A stretch of 52,997 nt of DNA from a virus (taxonomy: Duplodnaviria; Heunggongvirae; Uroviricota; Caudoviricetes), in IMG/VR virus record IMGVR_UViG_2585427779_000013, positions 1 through 52,997 of that record. The stretch is one strand, 5' to 3'. Below are positions 7,108-50,938 of this stretch, in pieces. Position 1 is the first letter of the stretch; every line of letters starts with the position of its first letter. The notes beneath the pieces were generated by a model. The model searched no databases, was not told where the DNA came from, and worked only from the letters and a program-made list of their open reading frames with translations. The translations under genes were made by a program, and so were the position numbers.

Positions 7108-7755
7108 ATGAAAACAAAATGGTATGACTTAGCAAAGCAGCTCATGCGGGCGCAGGGCATGAGTCAGGATTCACTCGCAGATCTCATGGGGATAACTAAA
7201 GGCGGCCTGTCACACTGGCTTAACGGTCGCCGCGAGCCAAATCTTGAAGATATTGCGCGGATTATGCGGGCGCTTGGGCGTCGTCAGTTCACTGTTACAC
7301 ATGATGGTATGGTCATTGATGATTCTGTTTCTAATACACTTCAGGCCGCACCGCCGCGTGATTTAGGTAGTTACCCGGTTATTGACTGGAAGGACACAGT
7401 AAACAATATGGATGACACAAGGCGATCAGCATTACCACACGTTACGACTAGCGTTATTTGTTCAGATGATAGTTACTGGCTGGTTGCCAAAGGTGAATCA
7501 ATGAACGCGCCGCAGGGGTTAAGCATCCCGGCGGGGACGATGATACTTGTTGACCCGCACGCGCCAGCTATTGACGGCAAACTGGTTATAGCCCAGCTTG
7601 AGGAAGGGCAGATACCGACGTTTAAACAGTTGATTATTGATGGAGGTCAAAGGCTTTTACGTTCGCTGAATCCGCTGTATCCGCCAATCCCTATGAATCC
7701 AGAATCAAAAATTATAGGCGTGGTGGTTGATGCGAAGATCGTAACCCTGCCATAA
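7108..7755 (+). CDS. CI-like phage repressor (HTH plus LexA/S24 peptidase domain)
   Basis: 215 aa; N-terminal XRE-type HTH; C-terminal S24 autoproteolysis motifs (AKGESM serine, TFKQL lysine). Confidence 0.85.
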   Translation: MKTKWYDLAKQLMRAQGMSQDSLADLMGITKGGLSHWLNGRREPNLEDIARIMRALGRRQFTVTHDGMVIDDSVSNTLQAAPPRDLGSYPVIDWKDTVNNMDDTRRSALPHVTTSVICSDDSYWLVAKGESMNAPQGLSIPAGTMILVDPHAPAIDGKLVIAQLEEGQIPTFKQLIIDGGQRLLRSLNPLYPPIPMNPESKIIGVVVDAKIVTLP

Positions 7756-7786: not shown

Positions 7787-7878
7787 CCTGGAAAACACCA
7801 AAACGTAAACAGAAAACGTTATTTATTATTTAAATATCAATGGTATATAAAATATTATAAAAAAGTATACAAAATGGA

Positions 7879-7907
7879 TTGACTCGGTGTTTTACGGGGC
7901 GTATATT
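7879..7907 (+). promoter_or_regulatory. candidate sigma70 promoter (PL-like)
   Basis: TTGACT (7879-7884), 17-bp spacer, TATATT (7902-7907); motif TATACAAAATGG ends 2 bp upstream of the -35. Confidence 0.45.
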
Positions 7908-8255
7908 GCGAATCAAAGGAAGGGCGCAGGTAACAAAAGCAACTTCCTGGCACTTTAAAAATCAGGCTTAACACCTTGTCAACCGTGGAGTAACTCCCCG
8001 ATGGGGGACCGAAAGCGGCACTGATAACAAGGCGCATGGGGTGTTTAAAGCGTTACATCCCCCACGAAACCGCACGCAAGGCGACGAGTCAGCTTGCTTG
8101 GAGTGAGCAAGGTCACGCCGGGAACGGCGATGATTGCGGGATTAGTTGAAAGATGTTAAGCCGCTCATTAACAATCTGGTCAGCCGCTGGAAGTGCGGCA
8201 ATTAACGAAGATGATTTTTTATTAAGTATCATCAAGGATATACGGAGATCAGATT

Positions 8256-29054: not shown

Positions 29055-29132
29055 AAACCATCCCACAATCCCCCACAAGTTTTTCTATTTTTCGCGTAGC
29101 AACGCGTAAACATGTATTCAGGAGTAAACATT

Positions 29133-30506
29133 ATGCCATCCAATTTAGAATTGGCGGTTAATGCTGCCTTGTCACAACGCCAGGCGGCCTTTGCCCGCTA
29201 TGCAGCCGCTAACCCATTCACTATGGGGATCGATGCTAAACGTAACGCCGCGTGGAGTGAATACGGATTCAAAGAAGAGCTTACCTATACTGATCTATAT
29301 AAGCTGTATCGTCGCGGTGGTATTGCTCACGGGGCCATTGAAAAAATTATCACCACATGCTGGCGCGATAGCCCGGTGCTGATAGAAGGCACTGAAGACG
29401 AGAAAGCGGAAACGGAAACACCCTGGGAAAGAGAAATAAAGAAACAATTCGATAACCGATTCTGGCGTGTTATTGCTGAATGCGATCGCCGTCGCCTGGT
29501 TGGTCGTTATGCCGGACTATTGATTCACGTCAAAGATAACCAGCCGTGGGATCGTCCAGTAACAAAAGGGGTAGGCATCGCTAAATTCACTCCTGTATGG
29601 GCTGGCGCACTAACACCAAAGGACTTCGATGAAAACCCGGATAGCGATAACTACGGTCTGCCGACATGGTGGGAATACAAAGAACGCATCAACAGCAAGA
29701 CCATCGCAAGGAAAATACATCCAGACCGGATATTTATCTTTGGTGACTATTCTGATGATGCTATCGCTTTCCTTGAGCCATCCTATAACGCTTTCGTTTC
29801 GCTGGAGAAAGTGGAAGGTGGTAGCGGTGAGTCATTCCTGAAGAACGCCGCACGCCAGCTTGCTATCTCATTCGACAAAGAAATTGACTTCCGCTCACTG
29901 GCTGCAACGTATGACTGCGACGTCACAGAGTTACGCGAAAAATTCAATGAAGCCGCAGCGGAAATGAATAAAGGTAATGATGTGATGATGGCGTTACAGG
30001 GCGCAACAGTAAGCCCGCTGGTAACTGCCGTATCTGACCCGTCCGCAACCTATGATGTAAACCTGCAAACCGCCGCCGCTGGTATCGACATTCCAACGCG
30101 TATCCTAGTTGGGAATCAACAGGGTGAACGAGCATCAACTGAAGATCTCCGCTATTTCAATAACCGATGCATGACCCGCCGCCAGGAAATCGGAGGCGAG
30201 CTTGAAGAACTATTCCGCAAACTGGCAGATCTACGCCTTACCAGTGAGCCACGCGACATATCAGTGCTATGGGATGACCTTAACGCTATGACCAAAGCCG
30301 AACTACTGGAAGCGGCACACAAGATGGCGCAAATCAATCAGGCATGTCTTGCTACTGGTGAGCAGGTATTCAGCGGTGATGAGATCCGCGAAGCTGCCGG
30401 ATATGAAGGGCCAACGCAGGAAGTAGAAGTGGAAGACGAGGAAAACGATGATGAAGGTGAAGAAAATAATCAGGCGAATACCTCCAGCCGCGATAATGCC
30501 ATCTAA
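29133..30506 (+). CDS. putative portal protein
   Basis: 457 aa following terL, acidic C-terminus; AGGAG RBS before ATG 29133; assignment by size and gene order. Confidence 0.6.
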   Translation: MPSNLELAVNAALSQRQAAFARYAAANPFTMGIDAKRNAAWSEYGFKEELTYTDLYKLYRRGGIAHGAIEKIITTCWRDSPVLIEGTEDEKAETETPWEREIKKQFDNRFWRVIAECDRRRLVGRYAGLLIHVKDNQPWDRPVTKGVGIAKFTPVWAGALTPKDFDENPDSDNYGLPTWWEYKERINSKTIARKIHPDRIFIFGDYSDDAIAFLEPSYNAFVSLEKVEGGSGESFLKNAARQLAISFDKEIDFRSLAATYDCDVTELREKFNEAAAEMNKGNDVMMALQGATVSPLVTAVSDPSATYDVNLQTAAAGIDIPTRILVGNQQGERASTEDLRYFNNRCMTRRQEIGGELEELFRKLADLRLTSEPRDISVLWDDLNAMTKAELLEAAHKMAQINQACLATGEQVFSGDEIREAAGYEGPTQEVEVEDEENDDEGEENNQANTSSRDNAI

Positions 30507-38084: not shown

Positions 38085-38744
38085 TTAATTCCAGTTGCAA
38101 GCGTTTTTTACTTTGTCGATGTGGTTATAAAGACCATCAATGTTAAACACTGCTTTCTCAATGTCGCCAGCTTCCGGCACTACTTCAATGATGAATTGTT
38201 TTTCGTTAACCATTTTTTTAATCATTGGGATGGCTTTTTTGCCGTCCCATAATCCAAGAGCTTTATAATTAGTTGACCGTCCCCACTCAGTAGCTACAGC
38301 TTTGTGAACGCCGATCCGGTAGTTAATATAAGTAGTGTCCCCGGCGTCAGTTACATGGTGTGACCATGCTACGAACATTTTTGTTTTATTACCCTGGCAA
38401 GCGATTGTTAATACCGGTTTATTCTTATCCTGTGCCTTCAGTGTCGGGAAAGCATCAAGACTTCCGCTGAATTGTTCTGCTTTCACAAAAAGGAATACGT
38501 TTTTTGCGTCCTGCATATCATCTTTTCTTTCAACTACAAGCCACTGTTTACCAGCATTTTCTTTTTCTAACTGTGCATCGTATGCGGCTTGTTTTGCTTG
38601 TTGTTCTGCAAGCCATTTAGCATTTTTCTCTGCTAATGCTTGTTGTTCTTGATTGGTCACTATAGGCGCTTTTTCATTATCCTCATTGCAACCAACCAGA
38701 CCCAATACCGCCGCAATCATTGCCACTTTTGCTAACTGTTTCAT
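38085..38744 (-). CDS. moron lipoprotein (219 aa)
   Basis: Signal peptide with lipobox MKQLAKVAMIAAVLGLVGC; coiled-coil rich N-terminal region. Confidence 0.6.
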   Translation of the reverse strand: MKQLAKVAMIAAVLGLVGCNEDNEKAPIVTNQEQQALAEKNAKWLAEQQAKQAAYDAQLEKENAGKQWLVVERKDDMQDAKNVFLFVKAEQFSGSLDAFPTLKAQDKNKPVLTIACQGNKTKMFVAWSHHVTDAGDTTYINYRIGVHKAVATEWGRSTNYKALGLWDGKKAIPMIKKMVNEKQFIIEVVPEAGDIEKAVFNIDGLYNHIDKVKNACNWN

Positions 38745-41964: not shown

Positions 41965-42219
41965 TCACTTATGCACCCCTTTGACTCCACAGTGCCTGTT
42001 ATATTCCAGATGATCGATAATTAACCAGACTTTTAGGTCTTCGCTAAACAGCCTCCAGTCAGGGGTGATGTCGAATTTAAAGCCATAACCATCACGTAAC
42101 TTTTTGGGGCGCGCCTCTTTCTTCAAAAATGCTTTAAGCAGTTCCCTCCCTTTCTTGATAATCCTGTCTTGTGCGTTTTTCTGTACTTTCAGGTTTTTAT
42201 CAATCGCTACCAGTTTCAT
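41965..42219 (-). CDS. moron basic small protein (84 aa)
   Basis: Reverse-strand ORF. Confidence 0.45.
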   Translation of the reverse strand: MKLVAIDKNLKVQKNAQDRIIKKGRELLKAFLKKEARPKKLRDGYGFKFDITPDWRLFSEDLKVWLIIDHLEYNRHCGVKGVHK

Positions 42220-42236
42220 AACTCACCCCATCATCC

Positions 42237-42392
42237 TTAGTTGAGTGCCTTCAGGAAGAAATCACGGTATTCATCTTCTTTTGCATTCATCATGAATTGA
42301 CCGTATTTGAATGCGTCGTCGAAGCCCTTAACGATTGCTATTTCCACTTGTTCGAATGCGTTGTTCAGCATTACCACTACATAGCGTTTCAT
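42237..42392 (-). CDS. moron small protein (51 aa; possible N-terminal extension to 42467)
   Basis: ATG at 42392 has GGAGG RBS; an in-frame upstream ATG at 42467 lies inside the TTTACAAAATGG motif. Confidence 0.45.
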   Translation of the reverse strand: MKRYVVVMLNNAFEQVEIAIVKGFDDAFKYGQFMMNAKEDEYRDFFLKALN

Positions 42393-42560
42393 TTTTGGCC
42401 TCCTTCGTTGGTACTGCTTTTCTTCTTGCTTTCTATATACATCTTGTTGCGTACTATGTGAAGCCATTTTGTAAACTAGCTATAATCATTGTGATTAAGA
42501 TCTCATTTTTCGCGTAGAGGCGCGTAAAGATATATACAAAATGTAACTTATGGGGGTTTT

Positions 42561-42914
42561 ATGCCGGAAGTGTTCAGATGGACGCCGCAACGAAGCTACA
42601 GCGTGACCAGGGAGCCGGACGTATCAGTTGTTAAGCTGGGCGATGGTTATGAGCAAAGACAGGTTAAAGGTATCAACCCGTTACTTGATAGCTACACCCT
42701 GGTGTTTAAGGGCAGTAGCGCCGGATGTGGTGATGGTGAAAACGTAGCAATCCAGGCGGAAGCATTCTTGAGGGCGCGCGGCGCGGTCGAGGCTTTTTAC
42801 TGGTCGCCGTCGATGGATAACGTGCAAAGGCTTTTTGTTTGCCGTAGCTGGAGCATGACTAAAGACGGTCCGCTATACACGCTAAATGCAACATTTGAGC
42901 AAGTTATTAATTAG
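42561..42914 (+). CDS. minor tail protein M (lambda gpM-like)
   Basis: 117 aa; resemblance to lambda gpM family by recall; followed later by L, K, I, J in lambda order. Confidence 0.65.
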   Translation: MPEVFRWTPQRSYSVTREPDVSVVKLGDGYEQRQVKGINPLLDSYTLVFKGSSAGCGDGENVAIQAEAFLRARGAVEAFYWSPSMDNVQRLFVCRSWSMTKDGPLYTLNATFEQVIN

Positions 42915-42922
42915 GGGGGGAT

Positions 42923-43105
42923 ATGCCTTATTTTTGTGTAGTGGAGCGCACTGGCGCTTTTACATTGTTCGCCGACTATGAAATTAATGATCTTACTGTC
43001 CGGGCTGATAACGGTGAGACGTGGTATCTTCATGATATGGGTGATGGATATATCGGCTGTACGACTTGGGATGGCAAAGAAGTAGCATTTCTATCCTACG
43101 ATTAA
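42923..43105 (+). CDS. hypothetical protein (60 aa)
   Basis: Short ORF after gpM, before bidirectional terminator. Confidence 0.35.
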   Translation: MPYFCVVERTGAFTLFADYEINDLTVRADNGETWYLHDMGDGYIGCTTWDGKEVAFLSYD

Positions 43106-43131
43106 AAAACACCCCGCCACGGCGGGGTTTA
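43104..43131. terminator. bidirectional terminator
   Basis: AAAAAAC-ACCCCGCC-ACG-GCGGGGT-TTAT. Confidence 0.65.
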
Positions 43132-43203
43132 TAGTGTCGATAGCAGAATGCATAACAATCCAATAATGATAATGATCATTTCCAGAACGTAATGTTCGCA
43201 CAT
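43129..43203 (-). CDS. very small hydrophobic peptide (24 aa, MCEHYVLEMIIIIIGLLCILLSTL)
   Basis: ATG 1 nt after upstream stop; overlaps terminator; speculative. Confidence 0.25.
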   Translation of the reverse strand: MCEHYVLEMIIIIIGLLCILLSTL

Positions 43204-43204
43204 C

Positions 43205-43453
43205 TCATAACGCCCCCTTCAAATATGTCAATCCCTTATCAGTGACGAATGAATGATTAACCTTGTTTTCATCCGTCATGATGATGAATAACTTTTCCTG
43301 CAAGTATTTTGCTTTCGGGTACAGCGTTAAGCAGACCTGGTATAAAATCCCGCGCTCAATCAGCAAATCAATAAATTCGTGTTCATGATAACCGACGAGG
43401 CGGGCGGCCTGTTTCAACGTGTACACATAATCACCGTGATTGCGCCGCCCCAT
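43205..43453 (-). CDS. moron protein with HTH-like segment (82 aa)
   Basis: TLKQAARLVGYHEHEFIDLLIERGIL resembles a DNA-binding helix-turn-helix. Confidence 0.45.
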   Translation of the reverse strand: MGRRNHGDYVYTLKQAARLVGYHEHEFIDLLIERGILYQVCLTLYPKAKYLQEKLFIIMTDENKVNHSFVTDKGLTYLKGAL

Positions 43454-43462
43454 GTTGTCGCC

Positions 43463-43810
43463 TTATTTATCGAACGCAGACAAATTGTCGATACAGAAAT
43501 CTTTTGCCGCTTTTTCGTATTCGCGTTTTGCTTGCGGATCGTCTGCCGGGAAACCTTTTGCGTGTATTTCACCAGGGCAAGACTGATCCATAGAATCAGC
43601 AAATTCAACATTGACGTTAAAGTTAATATCTTTCGGATTCATGTTTTCCACCTCATCAATTATCTGCACCGGATTAGCGGCATATTTCACTGGATGGCCT
43701 AAACTACATTCAAGAATCCTGCCTTCTTCCAGGGCTGCCTCTTCGCTATCAAATAATCCGAAACACTCCTTGCAACCACTTAACCACACATCAAGACTAT
43801 ATTTTTGCAT
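43463..43810 (-). CDS. moron protein (115 aa)
   Basis: Reverse-strand ORF, several Cys residues. Confidence 0.45.
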   Translation of the reverse strand: MQKYSLDVWLSGCKECFGLFDSEEAALEEGRILECSLGHPVKYAANPVQIIDEVENMNPKDINFNVNVEFADSMDQSCPGEIHAKGFPADDPQAKREYEKAAKDFCIDNLSAFDK

Positions 43811-43822
43811 TTCGTTAACCTC

Positions 43823-43978
43823 TCATTTGACAGGTTCGATTCTGTACCCCAAAACGCGTTCGTCTTCAGCGAGTAATAGCGCGTCAGTCAGTGCCTCGCC
43901 TTCGTCTTTATACAGAGCTACAGTCATTTCCCTGCCACCTGACAGGAATACCTTCAACCTCCACACCTTATCAGCCAT
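43823..43978 (-). CDS. moron small protein (51 aa)
   Basis: ATG 43978 with GGAGG RBS; in-frame upstream ATG at 43996 sits in motif CCATTTTGTTAA. Confidence 0.4.
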   Translation of the reverse strand: MADKVWRLKVFLSGGREMTVALYKDEGEALTDALLLAEDERVLGYRIEPVK

Positions 43979-44107
43979 CTCACACCTCCGCGCCATTTTG
44001 TTAACTGTGCTTCCGTTTGAGTAAAATATACATATTGTATAAACCGCGATCAATCCATTTTGGTATGATTTAGCGTGACGCAGATCACAAAATCAGAAGG
44101 TGAGAAA

Positions 44108-44812
44108 ATGCGCAATATACCTACAGAGATGATTATTGATTCCGTGGACGCTGGTGTGGGCGCGGTGATTGACTTGTTCGAACTGGACTTGTCGCCCCTG
44201 GGTGGCGAGGTTATCCGCTTCCATTCCGGCGCGAATGGCTATTACGGCCCGGTTATCTGGAAGGGATTAACTTACAACAGCTACCCGATCGAGGCTACTG
44301 GCTTCGAAATGAAAAACGAGGGCGTTTATTCGCGGCCTCAAATGGTTGTAGCTAATATCGGCGGGCTAATCACAGGGATGAATAACGACTTCAACGACCT
44401 GCGAGGAATGAAGGTTACGCGCCGCCAGGTGGAAGTAAAATACCTGGACGCCGTTAACTTCCCAAACGGCAATCCAGACGCAGATCCATCTATTGAGGCT
44501 GTATCTTTTTACGTCGTGGAGGCCATGAGCGAGGAAACAGCGGATCAGGTGCAATATGAGCTGTCAACGCCAATTGATGCTGATAAGGCCGTTATCCCTG
44601 GGCGCACCATCCTTGCTGACGTTTGCCAGTGGCAATACAGAGGCGACGGGTGTATGTACGCTGGCGGACCAGTAGCAAACGATAAAGACGAGCCGACAAG
44701 CGATCCTAAAGCCGACAGATGCAGCCACCGTCTAAGCGGTTGTCGTTTGCGTTTCCCGCGTCCAAATCCGTTACCGATTTCCTGTTTCCCTGGTTCCAGC
44801 AAGGTAGGTTAA
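44108..44812 (+). CDS. minor tail protein L (lambda gpL-like)
   Basis: 234 aa; C-terminal Cys cluster (CSHRLSGCRLRF) as in gpL; AGAAGGTGAG RBS. Confidence 0.7.
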   Translation: MRNIPTEMIIDSVDAGVGAVIDLFELDLSPLGGEVIRFHSGANGYYGPVIWKGLTYNSYPIEATGFEMKNEGVYSRPQMVVANIGGLITGMNNDFNDLRGMKVTRRQVEVKYLDAVNFPNGNPDADPSIEAVSFYVVEAMSEETADQVQYELSTPIDADKAVIPGRTILADVCQWQYRGDGCMYAGGPVANDKDEPTSDPKADRCSHRLSGCRLRFPRPNPLPISCFPGSSKVG

Positions 44813-50482: not shown

Positions 50483-50515
50483 AAATAACCCCGCTTTGCG
50501 CGGGGTTTTCTTTTA
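50483..50515. terminator. bidirectional terminator after J
   Basis: AAAAATAA-CCCCGC-TTTGC-GCGGGG-TTTTCTTTT. Confidence 0.75.
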
Positions 50516-50761
50516 GTAGTTAGCTACACAATTCGACGGGCTACCGATGCGGCGCATATTGTGATCTAGTTCATGACACCATTGACCAGTATATGGAAGT
50601 TTTTCAGTGTCATAGACAAGATGACCATTAGCATCATAGACAATTTCTTGAGGAATTACTCCGCTATTTGGCAGGTTGTGCAATGCAGCATCTTTGTCAA
50701 CAGCACAACCAGTAAGAGCAACAGCCGCAGCGAATAATACCACTTTGAGCATGTTTTTCAT
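50513..50761 (-). CDS. small lipoprotein, candidate receptor-blocking superinfection exclusion protein (Cor/Llp-like)
   Basis: 82 aa; signal peptide with lipobox MKNMLKVVLFAAAVALTGC; reverse strand between J and tail fibre gene. Confidence 0.55.
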   Translation of the reverse strand: MKNMLKVVLFAAAVALTGCAVDKDAALHNLPNSGVIPQEIVYDANGHLVYDTEKLPYTGQWCHELDHNMRRIGSPSNCVANY

Positions 50762-50938
50762 TTTTGAATCCCCATTCTCGTTAGCTCGCCAGGTTCATCC
50801 GGTGGCTTAAATATCCGACAAAACAACATTTCGTATATTGATATAAATCAATAAATACATTTTGTATAAGCCAGAAATGTAACACAGATCACAAAATGGT
50901 AAAATTACCAGGTTAATTAACATAATGGAGTCATTGCG

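What the first reader, a model, noticed from the sequence alone, without database searches (positions are those of the whole stretch)
43129..44053. Third moron island between gpM and gpL, including an HTH-like protein
Three to four minus-strand ORFs split the M-L pair, which is contiguous in lambda. One product (43205-43453) has an HTH-like segment; the 115-aa product is Cys-containing. The island is flanked by a bidirectional terminator and by motif copies at 43993-44065.
Basis: partly seen in the sequence, partly recalled or inferred. Interest (0 to 1): 0.5.

Follow-up and report, generated by a model that had tools for sequence, protein, structure and literature searches.

The report
Conserved leftward accessory operon between tail genes
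Three small genes sit backwards between two tail genes of a known family of gut E. coli phages; they form a self-contained accessory unit that nearly every family member keeps, they are not part of the tail, and their function is still unknown.

Summary
Between gpM (42561-42914) and gpL (44108-44812) lies a minus-strand operon of three real genes: p51 (43978-43823), p115 (43810-43463) and an 82-aa KilAC-domain protein (43453-43205). It has a predicted sigma70-type promoter (44053-44025) and an intrinsic terminator (43128-43111).

The window is an mEpimmI (mEp021-like) phage. The "variable moron hotspot" reading is only partly right:
- **Derived insertion.** In the nearest outgroup found, M and L overlap.
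- **Almost fixed.** It is present in 7/7 sequenced phages, 34/35 E. coli prophages and 43 IMG/VR loci, always in the same order.
- **One clean loss.** An apparently intact prophage (E. coli MS 21-1) lacks it, which argues against a virion-assembly role.
- **Variation is allelic.** The p115 N-domain is the most divergent segment (mean amino-acid distance 0.40, against 0.05 for L). Its C-terminal 45 residues are nearly invariant.

Kil82 is a lone KilAC domain with a MerR/Xis-like helix-turn-helix. The only tested KilAC domain (Listeria AriS) suppresses the SOS response. The promoter region is about four times more conserved than synonymous sites and carries a dispersed operator-like motif.

Function is inferred, not shown. 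My best guess is a host- or competitor-directed accessory module. Interest is modest.

The parts
42923..43105 (+). o60: a 60-aa acidic protein gene directly after gpM. It is part of the block that is extra relative to outgroups, and it is lost together with the island in E. coli MS 21-1.
   Evidence: ORF with a G-rich RBS. phrog_3249, E 2e-16. Present in all relatives that have the island. pN/pS 0.19. Absent from MS 21-1.
43104..43128 (-). Intrinsic terminator of the leftward operon. It may also act on rightward transcription.
   Evidence: 7-pair GC-rich stem ACCCCGC/GCGGGGT with a GTTTTTT tail on the minus strand. Annotated as a terminator on both strands in mEp021, and as a terminator in mEp013, mEp554, mEp010 and mEp044.
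43130..43204 (-). Variable slot 1, empty in this window. Relatives carry a 45-aa membrane peptide gene or a 67-aa gene here.
   Evidence: Homology with relatives breaks at 43129/43233. mEp013_96 and a gene in strain N25 occupy the slot.
43205..43453 (-). Kil82: a stand-alone ANT/KilAC-domain protein with a MerR/Xis-like helix-turn-helix. It is the last gene of the operon.
   Evidence: PF03374, 27.8 bits against a 25.3-bit cut-off. Distant tblastn hits are the C-terminal domains of Rha/Ant antirepressors, at 30-41% identity. AlphaFold2 pLDDT 77. Top fold hits are MerR-type HTH domains, E >= 0.5. pN/pS 0.13.
43454..43462 (-). Variable slot 2, between Kil82 and p115. mEp021 (75 aa) and E. coli N25 (93 aa) carry an extra gene here.
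43463..43810 (-). p115: an acidic two-part protein. The N-domain (aa 1-56) is hypervariable with a beta-beta-alpha-beta fold. The C-terminal module (aa 71-115) is nearly invariant.
   Evidence: Alignment of 26 family members. AlphaFold2 N-domain pLDDT about 90, C-half low confidence. BFVD fold hits are 50-60-aa phage proteins, several named DUF7336 (E 5e-3 to 0.1, TM up to 0.80). pN/pS 0.44 for the N-domain against 0.11 for the C-module. Net charge -12.
43640..43654 (-). Conserved internal Shine-Dalgarno-like GAGGTGG plus the ATG of Met57. This is a possible in-frame internal start or a relic of a gene fusion.
   Evidence: AGGTGGAA-N3-ATG is kept, including synonymous positions, in 39 of 41 unique genes. 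Stand-alone 56-60-aa proteins begin at exactly this Met (L053, P0117, P0118).
43823..43978 (-). p51: a 51-aa acidic protein and the first gene of the operon. It is a probable paralogue of the p115 N-domain.
   Evidence: ATG with a GGAGG RBS, conserved across relatives. phrog_29559, E 7e-24. BLASTP against p115 residues 4-49 gives 34% identity, E 1e-3. hhalign gives E 0.002 with probability only 14%. pN/pS 0.32.
43993..44005 (-). Motif copy GTTAACAAAATGG in the 5' leader of p51. Its complement supplies the -35 (TTGTTA) of the predicted rightward gpL promoter. It is also the right-hand boundary of the MS 21-1 deletion.
   Evidence: Invariant in 38 unique intergenic sequences.
44025..44053 (-). 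Predicted sigma70 promoter of the island: TTGATC, 17 nt, TATATT. The predicted start site is near 44018.
   Evidence: Consensus scan, 9 of 12 matches. Both hexamers are conserved in 38 unique sequences. The same [motif]-A-[-35]-17-[TATATT] layout occurs at 7866-7909.
43998..44027 (+). Predicted rightward promoter for gpL: TTGTTA, 18 nt, TAAAAT. Its -10 overlaps the island's -10.
   Evidence: The alternative allele in relatives gives TACAAT at the same place.
44027..44041 (.). Perfect 15-bp dyad TATACA-TAT-TGTATA (plus strand). It overlaps the island's -10 fully and touches one base of the gpL -10, so it is operator-like.
   Evidence: It is the only zero-mismatch match in the window. The core TACAATATGTA is invariant or nearly so in relatives.
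44055..44067 (-). Motif copy CATACCAAAATGG immediately upstream of the island's -35, centred at about -44.

Best explanation
This is a self-contained leftward operon (p51, then p115, then Kil82). It entered, together with the small rightward gene o60 and a terminator, between tail genes M and L in the ancestor of the mEpimmI (mEp021-like) coliphages, and it has been kept by almost all of them.

**Transcription (inferred).** It is transcribed from its own sigma70-type promoter. That promoter is interlocked with a rightward promoter for gpL and covered by operator-like motif copies. The same motif marks the other backward-facing islands of the tail region, including the one that encodes the tested Lpp superinfection-exclusion lipoprotein. 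Q-antiterminated late transcription can read through the island in antisense.

**Role (inferred).** The products are accessory, not virion parts. Most likely they act on the host or on competing phages.
- Kil82 is a lone KilAC domain. It could work like the KilAC domain of Listeria AriS, which damps the RecA/SOS response, or as a small MerR/Xis-like DNA binder that regulates the motif-bearing promoters.
- p51 and p115 are small acidic proteins with a DUF7336-like fold. Their recognition surfaces diversify quickly, while p115 keeps an invariant C-terminal peptide that may also be translated on its own.

**Shown here:** the anatomy, the coding status, the distribution, the one clean loss, the domain architecture and the conservation pattern.

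**Inferred only:** the timing of expression and every biochemical activity.
For: **Lineage and layout**
- The window belongs to the mEp021 group: seven phage records match at 85-92% nucleotide identity with the same layout.
- The gene order M-o60-Kil-p115-p51-L is invariant in 7 phages, 8 of the 9 phage or prophage loci read in detail, and 43 IMG/VR loci. 34 of 35 E. coli prophages carry the KilAC gene.
- In the outgroup Erwinia phage vB_EhrS_49, M and L overlap.
- None of the three proteins has relatives outside this phage group and E. coli.

**Dispensability**
- The E. coli MS 21-1 prophage lacks window 42909-43994 but keeps the promoter region and intact M and L.
- That prophage is otherwise collinear and carries no pseudogene flags.

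**Coding and expression signals**
- All genes are under purifying selection.
- The promoter and terminator are predicted.
- The 129-bp intergenic region diverges by 0.11, against synonymous divergence of 0.43-0.50 in the flanking genes.
- A Q-type antiterminator is present (PF03589).

**Shared regulation**
- The motif is enriched about 15-fold and keeps the same positions in MS 21-1.
- It also lies in the promoter region of the Lpp lipoprotein gene (50513-50761). That class of lipoprotein was shown to exclude phages (PMC11893012).

**Proteins**
- Kil82 matches KilAC above the Pfam cut-off.
- The KilAC domain of AriS, expressed alone, blocks SOS induction (PMC9043618).
- mEpimmI phages are mostly not UV-inducible (PMC11893012).
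- The p115 N-domain is the most variable segment of the M-to-K region, and segments assort independently.
- A stand-alone copy of the C-module exists in an unrelated 121-kb viral contig.
Against: - There are no expression data. The promoter call is a 9-of-12 consensus match, and promoter-like sites are not enriched in the region.
- The perfect dyad over the promoter core could mean the operon is repressed in lysogens. That would undercut a prophage-benefit role.
- Near-fixation in the lineage is unusual for a dispensable moron. It could mean the operon matters for the phage's own life cycle.
- The intact appearance of the MS 21-1 prophage does not prove it is viable.
- There is no hit to any defence model (PADLOC), NCBIfam model or solved structure for p51 or p115.
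- Kil82 lacks the N-terminal domain of every characterised KilAC protein and is only distantly related to them. Its fold hits are not significant.
- I could not read the list of 16 virion proteins of mEp021, which is only in a figure. Virion association is therefore not formally excluded.
Confidence: 0.55

Rival explanations
1. The operon is a phage regulatory module. Kil82 is the DNA-binding protein that recognises the dispersed TATACA-N3-TGTATA / TACAAAATGG motif. Through it, Kil82 controls its own promoter, the gpL promoter and the other backward-facing islands. p51 and p115 modulate it.
For: - Kil82 has a MerR/Xis-like HTH, and the top fold hits are DNA-bound MerR, RacA, Xis and BldC domains.
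- Kil82 and the motif-bearing intergenic region are both unusually conserved: Kil82 amino-acid distance 0.054, intergenic distance 0.11.
- The only perfect dyad in the genome lies over the operon's own promoter.
- The motif sits at about -44 of several promoters.
Against: - MS 21-1 has lost Kil82 yet keeps all ten motif copies at their usual places. This is weak evidence if the deletion is recent.
- Fold hits are not significant (E >= 0.5).
- The CI-like repressor (7108-7755, HTH_3 plus S24) or another phage or host protein could equally be the binder.
- Autoregulators are usually the first gene of an operon, not the last.
Confidence: 0.2
2. The operon is an antirepressor-type induction switch. 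Kil82 inactivates the CI-like repressor, as P22 Ant and the Gifsy or Stx-phage antirepressors do, and so sets the lysis-lysogeny decision.
For: - The mEp021 record names the gene 'putative antirepressor'.
- The nearest non-family relatives are C-terminal domains of Rha/Ant antirepressors.
- The phages are mostly not UV-inducible, so they might use another induction route.
Against: - Kil82 has only the KilAC domain. The N-terminal AntA, Bro-N or Rha domain found in all those proteins is missing.
- There is no LexA box anywhere near the promoter.
- The location, inside the tail genes and far from the immunity region, is atypical.
- In AriS the KilAC domain acted on SOS, not on the repressor.
Confidence: 0.1
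3. The genes are tail-tip assembly or virion-associated factors specific to this lineage, for example chaperones for M, L or the tape measure. That would make them ordinary morphogenesis genes.
For: - The position is inside the tail-tip gene cluster.
- The genes are present in nearly all lineage members.
- Small acidic proteins can be chaperones.
Against: - The genes are on the opposite strand with their own promoter and terminator.
- They are absent from the closest outgroup with the same M, L, K, I and J module.
- They are absent from an apparently intact prophage.
- The p115 N-domain diverges far faster than its supposed tail partners and does not co-vary with M, L or K.
- A stand-alone copy of the C-module lies in a non-tail context.
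Confidence: 0.05
4. The operon is a toxin-antitoxin or abortive-infection cassette, like the ParE-like pair in the neighbouring TMP-M island. p51 would be the antitoxin and p115 or Kil82 the toxin.
For: - The genes are small, tightly spaced and have their own promoter.
- The neighbouring island has a ParE-like toxin preceded by a 51-aa gene.
- p115 has a disordered-then-helical conserved tail of the kind seen in antitoxins.
Against: - There is no toxin or antitoxin family hit in Pfam, NCBIfam or PADLOC.
- All three proteins are soluble, and two are strongly acidic.
- p51 and the p115 N-domain look like paralogues rather than a toxin-antitoxin pair.
- There is no special co-variation between p51 and p115.
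Confidence: 0.08

Closest known systems
Morons of lambdoid phages (for example HK97 gene 15, lambda lom and bor), as defined by Hendrix and colleagues. This comparison is from my own knowledge.
   Same: - Extra genes lie between two genes that are adjacent in related phages.
- The block has its own predicted promoter and terminator inside the late region.
- Its GC is lower than that of its flanks.
- It is not needed to keep the neighbouring structural genes intact.
   Different: - It is not sporadic. It is fixed in nearly the whole lineage: 34 of 35 prophages and all 7 phages.
- It has three genes on the opposite strand.
- Its promoter is interlocked with a promoter for the next tail gene.
- Its proteins are unrelated to known moron products.
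- Expression from the prophage has not been shown.
Lpp superinfection-exclusion cassette of the same phage group (window 50513-50761; PMC11893012)
   Same: - It is a backward-facing small gene unit inside the structural cluster of mEpimmI phages.
- It carries the same TATACAAAATG-type motif in its promoter region.
   Different: - Lpp is a lipoprotein with a tested exclusion phenotype and is present in 83% of genomes.
- The M-L operon encodes cytoplasmic acidic proteins and a KilAC domain, and has no tested phenotype.
AriS and other ANT/KilAC-domain regulators (Pfam PF03374; Listeria phage phi10403S, PMC9043618)
   Same: - Kil82 matches the KilAC model above the gathering score.
- In AriS the KilAC domain alone is sufficient for activity, namely SOS inhibition.
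   Different: - Kil82 is 82 aa and lacks the N-terminal AntA, Bro-N or Rha domain.
- It is encoded in the tail region, not the early region.
- The host is Gram-negative.
- Sequence identity to any characterised member was not measured here.
DUF7336-type tiny phage proteins (BFVD models)
   Same: The p115 N-domain model superposes on many 50-60-aa phage proteins with a beta-beta-alpha-beta fold. TM-scores reach 0.80 at about 2 A rmsd, and Foldseek probability is about 1.0.
   Different: - There is no sequence-level match to the Pfam family, even at E <= 10.
- Foldseek E-values are only 5e-3 to 0.1.
- That family has no known function either.
- p115 carries an extra conserved C-terminal module.

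Membership tests
Moron (autonomous accessory unit in a phage late region) | It lies between two genes that are adjacent in related phages. | tested here: met
   M and L overlap by 4 nt in Erwinia phage vB_EhrS_49, whose L is 69% identical. Most of the 710 other L-bearing phage records show M directly under the L match.
Moron (autonomous accessory unit in a phage late region) | It has its own promoter and terminator. | tested here: inconclusive
   A sigma70-like promoter (9 of 12 matches) and a strong intrinsic terminator are predicted, and both are conserved. No transcript data are available.
Moron (autonomous accessory unit in a phage late region) | Its distribution among close relatives is sporadic (present or absent). 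| tested here: not met
   It is present in 7 of 7 phages, 34 of 35 E. coli prophages and 43 of 43 IMG/VR loci (the last set is biased). There is a single deletion, in MS 21-1.
Moron (autonomous accessory unit in a phage late region) | Its base composition differs from its flanks. | tested here: met
   GC is 0.40-0.46 in the island, against 0.50-0.53 in M and L.
Moron (autonomous accessory unit in a phage late region) | It is expressed from the repressed prophage. | not testable with these tools
   This needs RNA-seq or reporter fusions in a lysogen.
ANT/KilAC domain (PF03374) | The profile HMM score is above the curated cut-off. | tested here: met
   27.8 bits against 25.3. The match covers profile positions 23-102 of 108. 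The precomputed Pfam assignment is the same for 6 of 7 family clusters.
Two-domain phage antirepressors (Ant, Rha, Bro-N or AriS type) | An N-terminal AntA/AntB, Bro-N or pRha domain is fused to KilAC. | tested here: not met
   The protein is 82 aa and contains only KilAC. Distant homologues align only by their C-terminal parts.
Two-domain phage antirepressors (Ant, Rha, Bro-N or AriS type) | It has antirepressor or SOS-inhibiting activity. | not testable with these tools
   The activity is known only for Listeria AriS and two homologues.
LexA-controlled antirepressor modules | A LexA box lies at the promoter. | tested here: not met
   No CTGT-N8-ACAG match with up to 1 mismatch occurs within the island or its promoter. 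Genome-wide there are 6 matches against 12.5 expected.
Type II toxin-antitoxin systems | A recognisable toxin or antitoxin family member is present. | tested here: not met
   There are no Pfam, NCBIfam or PADLOC hits for p51 or p115.
Tail morphogenesis genes | It is co-oriented with the late operon and conserved wherever the same tail module occurs. | tested here: not met
   It is on the opposite strand. It is absent from the outgroup and from MS 21-1.
Tail morphogenesis genes | The product is found in purified virions. | not tested
   The 16 virion proteins of mEp021 are listed only in a figure that I could not read. The text does not mention these genes.
DUF7336 | There is a sequence match to the family profile. 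| tested here: not met
   No Pfam hit at E <= 10 for the p115 N-domain or for p51. There is only fold-level resemblance.

The most novel reading that the evidence does not exclude
The lone KilAC protein is a prophage-encoded brake on the RecA/SOS response. This would explain why mEpimmI prophages are mostly not UV-inducible even though their repressor has an S24 self-cleavage domain.

p115 is a new kind of modular effector. A fast-evolving DUF7336-like head is fused to an invariant 45-residue tail, and the tail is also made on its own from a conserved internal start.

The whole operon belongs to a phage-wide regulon defined by the TATACA-N3-TGTATA operator, which also controls the other antisense islands in the tail region.
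Probability: 0.12. Interest if true: 0.6.

Novelty: new member of a known kind. Interest (0 to 1): 0.35.

Why it matters
mEpimmI phages are reported to be as common in human faecal isolates as lambdoid phages, yet their accessory genes are untested.

If the operon damps the SOS response or blocks rival phages, it would affect how stable these prophages, and their co-resident prophages, are in gut E. coli.

The p115 architecture (variable head, invariant tail, possible internal start) and the dispersed operator-like motif are concrete, cheap targets for experiments in an existing collection (mEp021 and relatives in K-12).

Otherwise this is a routine case: an uncharacterised accessory block that is already annotated in public records.

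Tried and rejected
- **Zinc finger in p115.** The CxxC...CxxxH pattern in the N-terminus is not conserved across 26 family members.
- **Known defence, NCBI or solved-structure families.** PADLOC, NCBIfam and PDB sequence searches returned nothing for p51, p115 or o60.
- **T7 Gp2-like RNA polymerase inhibitor.** The p115 N-domain gave only E 1.7 and probability 0.54 on a very simple fold. I do not use this.
- **OmpA-like origin of the p115 C-module.** The profile search hit OmpA-repeat proteins through a short HAKGxPADDxxAKR stretch. Pfam does not see OmpA in p115, so I treat it as chance.
- **Wider taxonomic spread.** There are no relatives of p115 or p51 in 185,579 species-representative genomes.
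- **RNA element.** The only Rfam match is a sub-threshold hit on the terminator. The 3' region does not fold unusually well, with z = -1.0.
- **Co-evolution of p51 with the p115 N-domain.** The distance correlation is 0.36, no higher than between p51 and L at 0.53.
- **LexA control.** There is no LexA box.
- **Supplementary tables of PMC11893012.** I searched them for the core-gene and virion lists and found nothing readable.
- **Identity of the 121-kb contig L053.** It has no match in the phage or plasmid collections.
Full report
**What is there**

In the window, gpM (42561-42914, PF05939) and gpL (44108-44812, PF05100) are separated by 1.2 kb. In order, that interval contains:
- a small rightward gene, o60 (42923-43105);
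- a GC-rich hairpin (43111-43128) followed by a T-run on the minus strand;
- three minus-strand genes spaced 9-12 nt apart: Kil82 (43205-43453), p115 (43463-43810) and p51 (43823-43978);
- a 129-bp intergenic region that ends at the gpL start codon.

Its TTG is the -35 hexamer of the predicted promoter. The conserved start is ATG 43978 behind GGAGG, and indels in relatives break the upstream frame. The 36-aa ORF at 43091-43201 overlaps the terminator and is not conserved.

All three genes, and o60, are under purifying selection. pN/pS runs from 0.13 to 0.33, against 0.12 for M and 0.07 for L. GC is 0.40-0.46 in the island, against 0.50-0.53 in M and L.

**Where the window comes from and how the island is distributed**

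The region matches seven phage records at 85-92% identity: MagusPhagus, mEp013, mEp021, mEp554, mEp010, mEp515 and mEp044. This is the mEpimmI group described in PMC11893012.
- The six phage records I read in detail carry the same three genes between M and L.
- Among 5,426 complete E. coli genomes, 35 carry this M-L region and 34 of them include the KilAC gene.
- In 43 IMG/VR loci retrieved through p115, the order M-o60-Kil-p115-p51-L is invariant. This set is biased towards having the island.
- The published pangenome lists the "KilAC-like antirepressor" among the manually defined core genes of 48 genomes.
- None of the three proteins has relatives outside this group and E. coli. p115 has 59 clusters, Kil82 has 7 and p51 has 50. 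A full profile scan of 1.8 billion representatives added essentially nothing. There is nothing in 185,579 species-representative genomes.

**The island is a derived insertion with one secondary loss**

The nearest outgroup with the same tail module is Erwinia phage vB_EhrS_49, whose L is 69% identical. There, M and L overlap by 4 nt, as in lambda. The block is therefore an insertion in the ancestor of the group.

One prophage, in E. coli MS 21-1, lacks window 42909-43994.
- M is followed after 124 bp by L.
- The retained 124 bp are the island's promoter region, starting exactly at the motif copy CCATTTTGTTAAC.
- Because the promoter region is retained, this looks like a secondary deletion rather than the ancestral state. 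That is an inference.
- The prophage is otherwise collinear with the window over 50 kb and has no pseudogene flags.

The block is therefore not needed to keep an apparently complete phage genome. Viability of that prophage is unknown.

**What varies**

Gene presence hardly varies. Two small slots do:
- Between the terminator and Kil82, relatives carry a 45-aa membrane peptide gene or a 67-aa gene.
- Between Kil82 and p115, mEp021 carries a 75-aa gene and strain N25 a 93-aa gene.

The main variation is allelic. Mean pairwise amino-acid distances are listed below.

| Segment | Mean pairwise distance |
|---|---|
| p115 residues 1-56 | 0.40 |
| p115 residues 57-70 | 0.28 |
| p51 | 0.25 |
| o60 | 0.17 |
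| p115 C-module | 0.07 |
| Kil82 | 0.05 |
| L | 0.05 |

Distance matrices of adjacent segments are barely correlated. The p115 N-domain against its own C-module gives r = 0.13. Recombination therefore shuffles segments, with breakpoints inside p115.

**The proteins**

*Kil82.*
- It matches Pfam ANT/KilAC above the gathering score.
- Its distant relatives are the C-terminal domains of Rha/Ant antirepressors of Vibrio, Cronobacter and Stx phages, at 30-41% identity. Kil82 itself has no N-terminal domain.
- The AlphaFold2 model has pLDDT 77. It shows a short strand, a helix-turn-helix and further helices.
- The best PDB fold matches are all MerR-family, RacA, Xis or BldC DNA-binding domains, but none is significant (E >= 0.5).
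- The only experimental result I found for this domain concerns Listeria phage AriS. Its KilAC domain, expressed alone, blocks SOS gene induction and prophage induction, probably through RecA (PMC9043618).
- mEpimmI phages are reported as mostly not UV-inducible. The link between these two facts is my inference.

*p115.*
- It is acidic, with a net charge of -12.
- Its N-domain is modelled with confidence (pLDDT about 90) as beta-beta-alpha-beta. The conserved C-half is modelled as a disordered stretch plus a helix, at low confidence.
- The N-domain superposes on many 50-60-aa phage proteins, several named DUF7336. TM-scores reach 0.80 and E-values are 5e-3 to 0.1. There is no sequence-level match.
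- The N-terminal cysteines are not conserved. C78, H83 and C106 are invariant.
- Directly before the near-invariant Met57 lies AGGTGGAA-N3-ATG. It is kept in 39 of 41 unique genes, including at synonymous positions, inside an otherwise hypervariable stretch.
- Stand-alone 56-60-aa proteins start exactly at that Met. One of them is in an unrelated 121-kb viral contig, next to a homologue of the 45-aa membrane peptide.
- This points to a gene fusion, and possibly to an internal start that also yields the C-module alone. That is an inference.

*p51.* It aligns end to end with the p115 N-domain, at 34% identity (BLASTP E 1e-3; hhalign E 0.002 but probability only 14%). Paralogy is probable but not proven.

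**Regulatory region**

The 129-bp region between p51 and L diverges by 0.11 among 38 unique sequences. Synonymous divergence in the flanking genes is 0.43-0.50. The invariant blocks coincide with these elements:
- a leftward promoter, TTGATC-17-TATATT (44053-44025);
- a rightward promoter, TTGTTA-18-TAAAAT (43998-44027), whose -10 overlaps the leftward -10;
- a perfect 15-bp dyad, TATACA-N3-TGTATA (44027-44041), which covers the leftward -10 and abuts the rightward one;
- two flanking motif copies, at 43993-44005 and 44055-44067.

The 12-mer motif occurs 10 times in the window, against 0.68 expected. It keeps the same positions in MS 21-1. It lies in nearly all divergent intergenic regions, including the one upstream of the Lpp lipoprotein gene (50513-50761). 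That class of lipoprotein excluded phages when expressed.

In four promoters the motif is centred near -44, with the same [motif]-[-35]-17-[TATATT] layout. One of these is the promoter just downstream of the CI-like repressor gene. I could not identify what binds the motif.

A Q-type antiterminator is present. Late transcription can therefore cross the terminators and run antisense through the island. That step follows from established knowledge of Q-type antiterminators.

**Interpretation**

The anatomy is that of a moron, but the distribution is that of a lineage-specific, nearly fixed accessory operon. I rank the explanations as follows.
1. A host- or competitor-directed accessory module. 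Kil82 acts either like the AriS KilAC domain or as a small DNA binder, and p51 and p115 are fast-evolving binders (confidence 0.55 for the general statement, much lower for any single activity).
2. A regulatory module in which Kil82 is the motif binder (0.2).
3. An antirepressor switch (0.1). Against it: the N-terminal domain is missing and there is no LexA box.
4. A toxin-antitoxin or abortive-infection cassette (0.08).
5. Tail assembly (0.05).

The timing of expression is open. The dyad over the promoter core could mean repression in lysogens.

**Novelty**

The genes are already annotated as hypothetical proteins or as a KilAC domain protein, and the phage group is published. The following appear to be new here:
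- the evidence that the block is a derived insertion with one clean loss;
- the two-part architecture of p115 with its internal start signal;
- the probable paralogy of p51 with the p115 N-domain;
- the interlocked, strongly conserved promoter region with the only perfect dyad in the genome;
- the proposed link between the lone KilAC domain and UV non-inducibility.

None of this places the island outside the known kind, which is phage accessory operons.

Noticed in passing
window 3976, 7023, 7866, 15900/15967, 21569/21597, 38926/38954, 42464/42533, 43993-44067, 50826-50917: A dispersed motif, TWTACAAAATGK, and its dyad form, TATACA-N3-TGTATA, occur in nearly every divergent intergenic region. 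There are 10 exact copies against 0.68 expected, and 14 dyad-like copies against 2.7. Some copies are centred near -44 of sigma70-like promoters, some lie just upstream of ribosome-binding sites, and two lie about 20 nt before boxA-like nut sequences. The positions are conserved in the MS 21-1 prophage. The binding protein is unknown.
   Followed up: partly
window 41965-42219 and 42237-42392 (minus strand): The TMP-M island holds a ParE-like toxin gene (PF24732, E 4e-11). A 51-aa gene precedes it and is probably its antitoxin. The longer ORF starting at 42467 begins inside a motif copy and is probably not the real start.
   Followed up: partly
window 38085-38744 (minus strand): The island before the tape-measure gene encodes a VasI/TagO-like protein associated with type VI secretion (PF11319, E 1e-15). 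That is an unusual cargo for a siphophage tail region.
   Followed up: no
window 50513-50761 (minus strand): This is a lipoprotein gene with lipobox LTGC. It belongs to the class of Lpp superinfection-exclusion proteins tested in PMC11893012, and the same motif lies in its upstream region.
   Followed up: partly
window 29087-29120 and 42505-42538: A 34-nt repeat, 82% identical, contains a CGCG...CGCG hairpin. One copy lies just upstream of the 464-aa gene at 29112 and the other just upstream of gpM. It could be a shared RNA or regulatory element of late-gene leaders.
   Followed up: no
L053:3962-4292 (IMGVR_UViG_3300045988_157310, 121 kb): An unrelated large viral contig carries a stand-alone 60-aa copy of the p115 C-terminal module. 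A homologue of the 45-aa membrane peptide found next to the terminator in mEp013, mEp010, mEp044 and mEp554 follows it directly. The contig has no match in the phage or plasmid collections.
   Followed up: partly
p115 residues 78-100 (window 43511-43579): The invariant stretch CPGEIHAKGFPADDPxAKRE resembles the core motif of OmpA-family repeats in two long repeat proteins (P0121 and P0123, E 5e-6 and 5e-5). Pfam does not detect OmpA in p115, so this is probably chance.
   Followed up: partly
window 43205-43453: The Kil82 gene has about half the synonymous divergence of its neighbours: pS 0.25 against 0.42-0.59. This suggests either a recent sweep or an extra constraint at the nucleotide level.
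   Followed up: no
window 43823-43978, and RefSeq proteins such as WP_065225619.1: NCBI's annotation pipeline names the 51-aa protein 'transporter'. Nothing supports this name: the protein is soluble and acidic, and it has no NCBIfam or Pfam hit.
   Followed up: yes
L055:29703-31073 (E. coli MS 21-1), orthologous to window 29112-30506: RefSeq annotates the 456-aa protein at this head-region position, between a 504-aa hypothetical protein and the minor head protein, as 'anti-CBASS protein Acb1 family protein'. I did not check whether this is a real fusion or a naming artefact.
   Followed up: no
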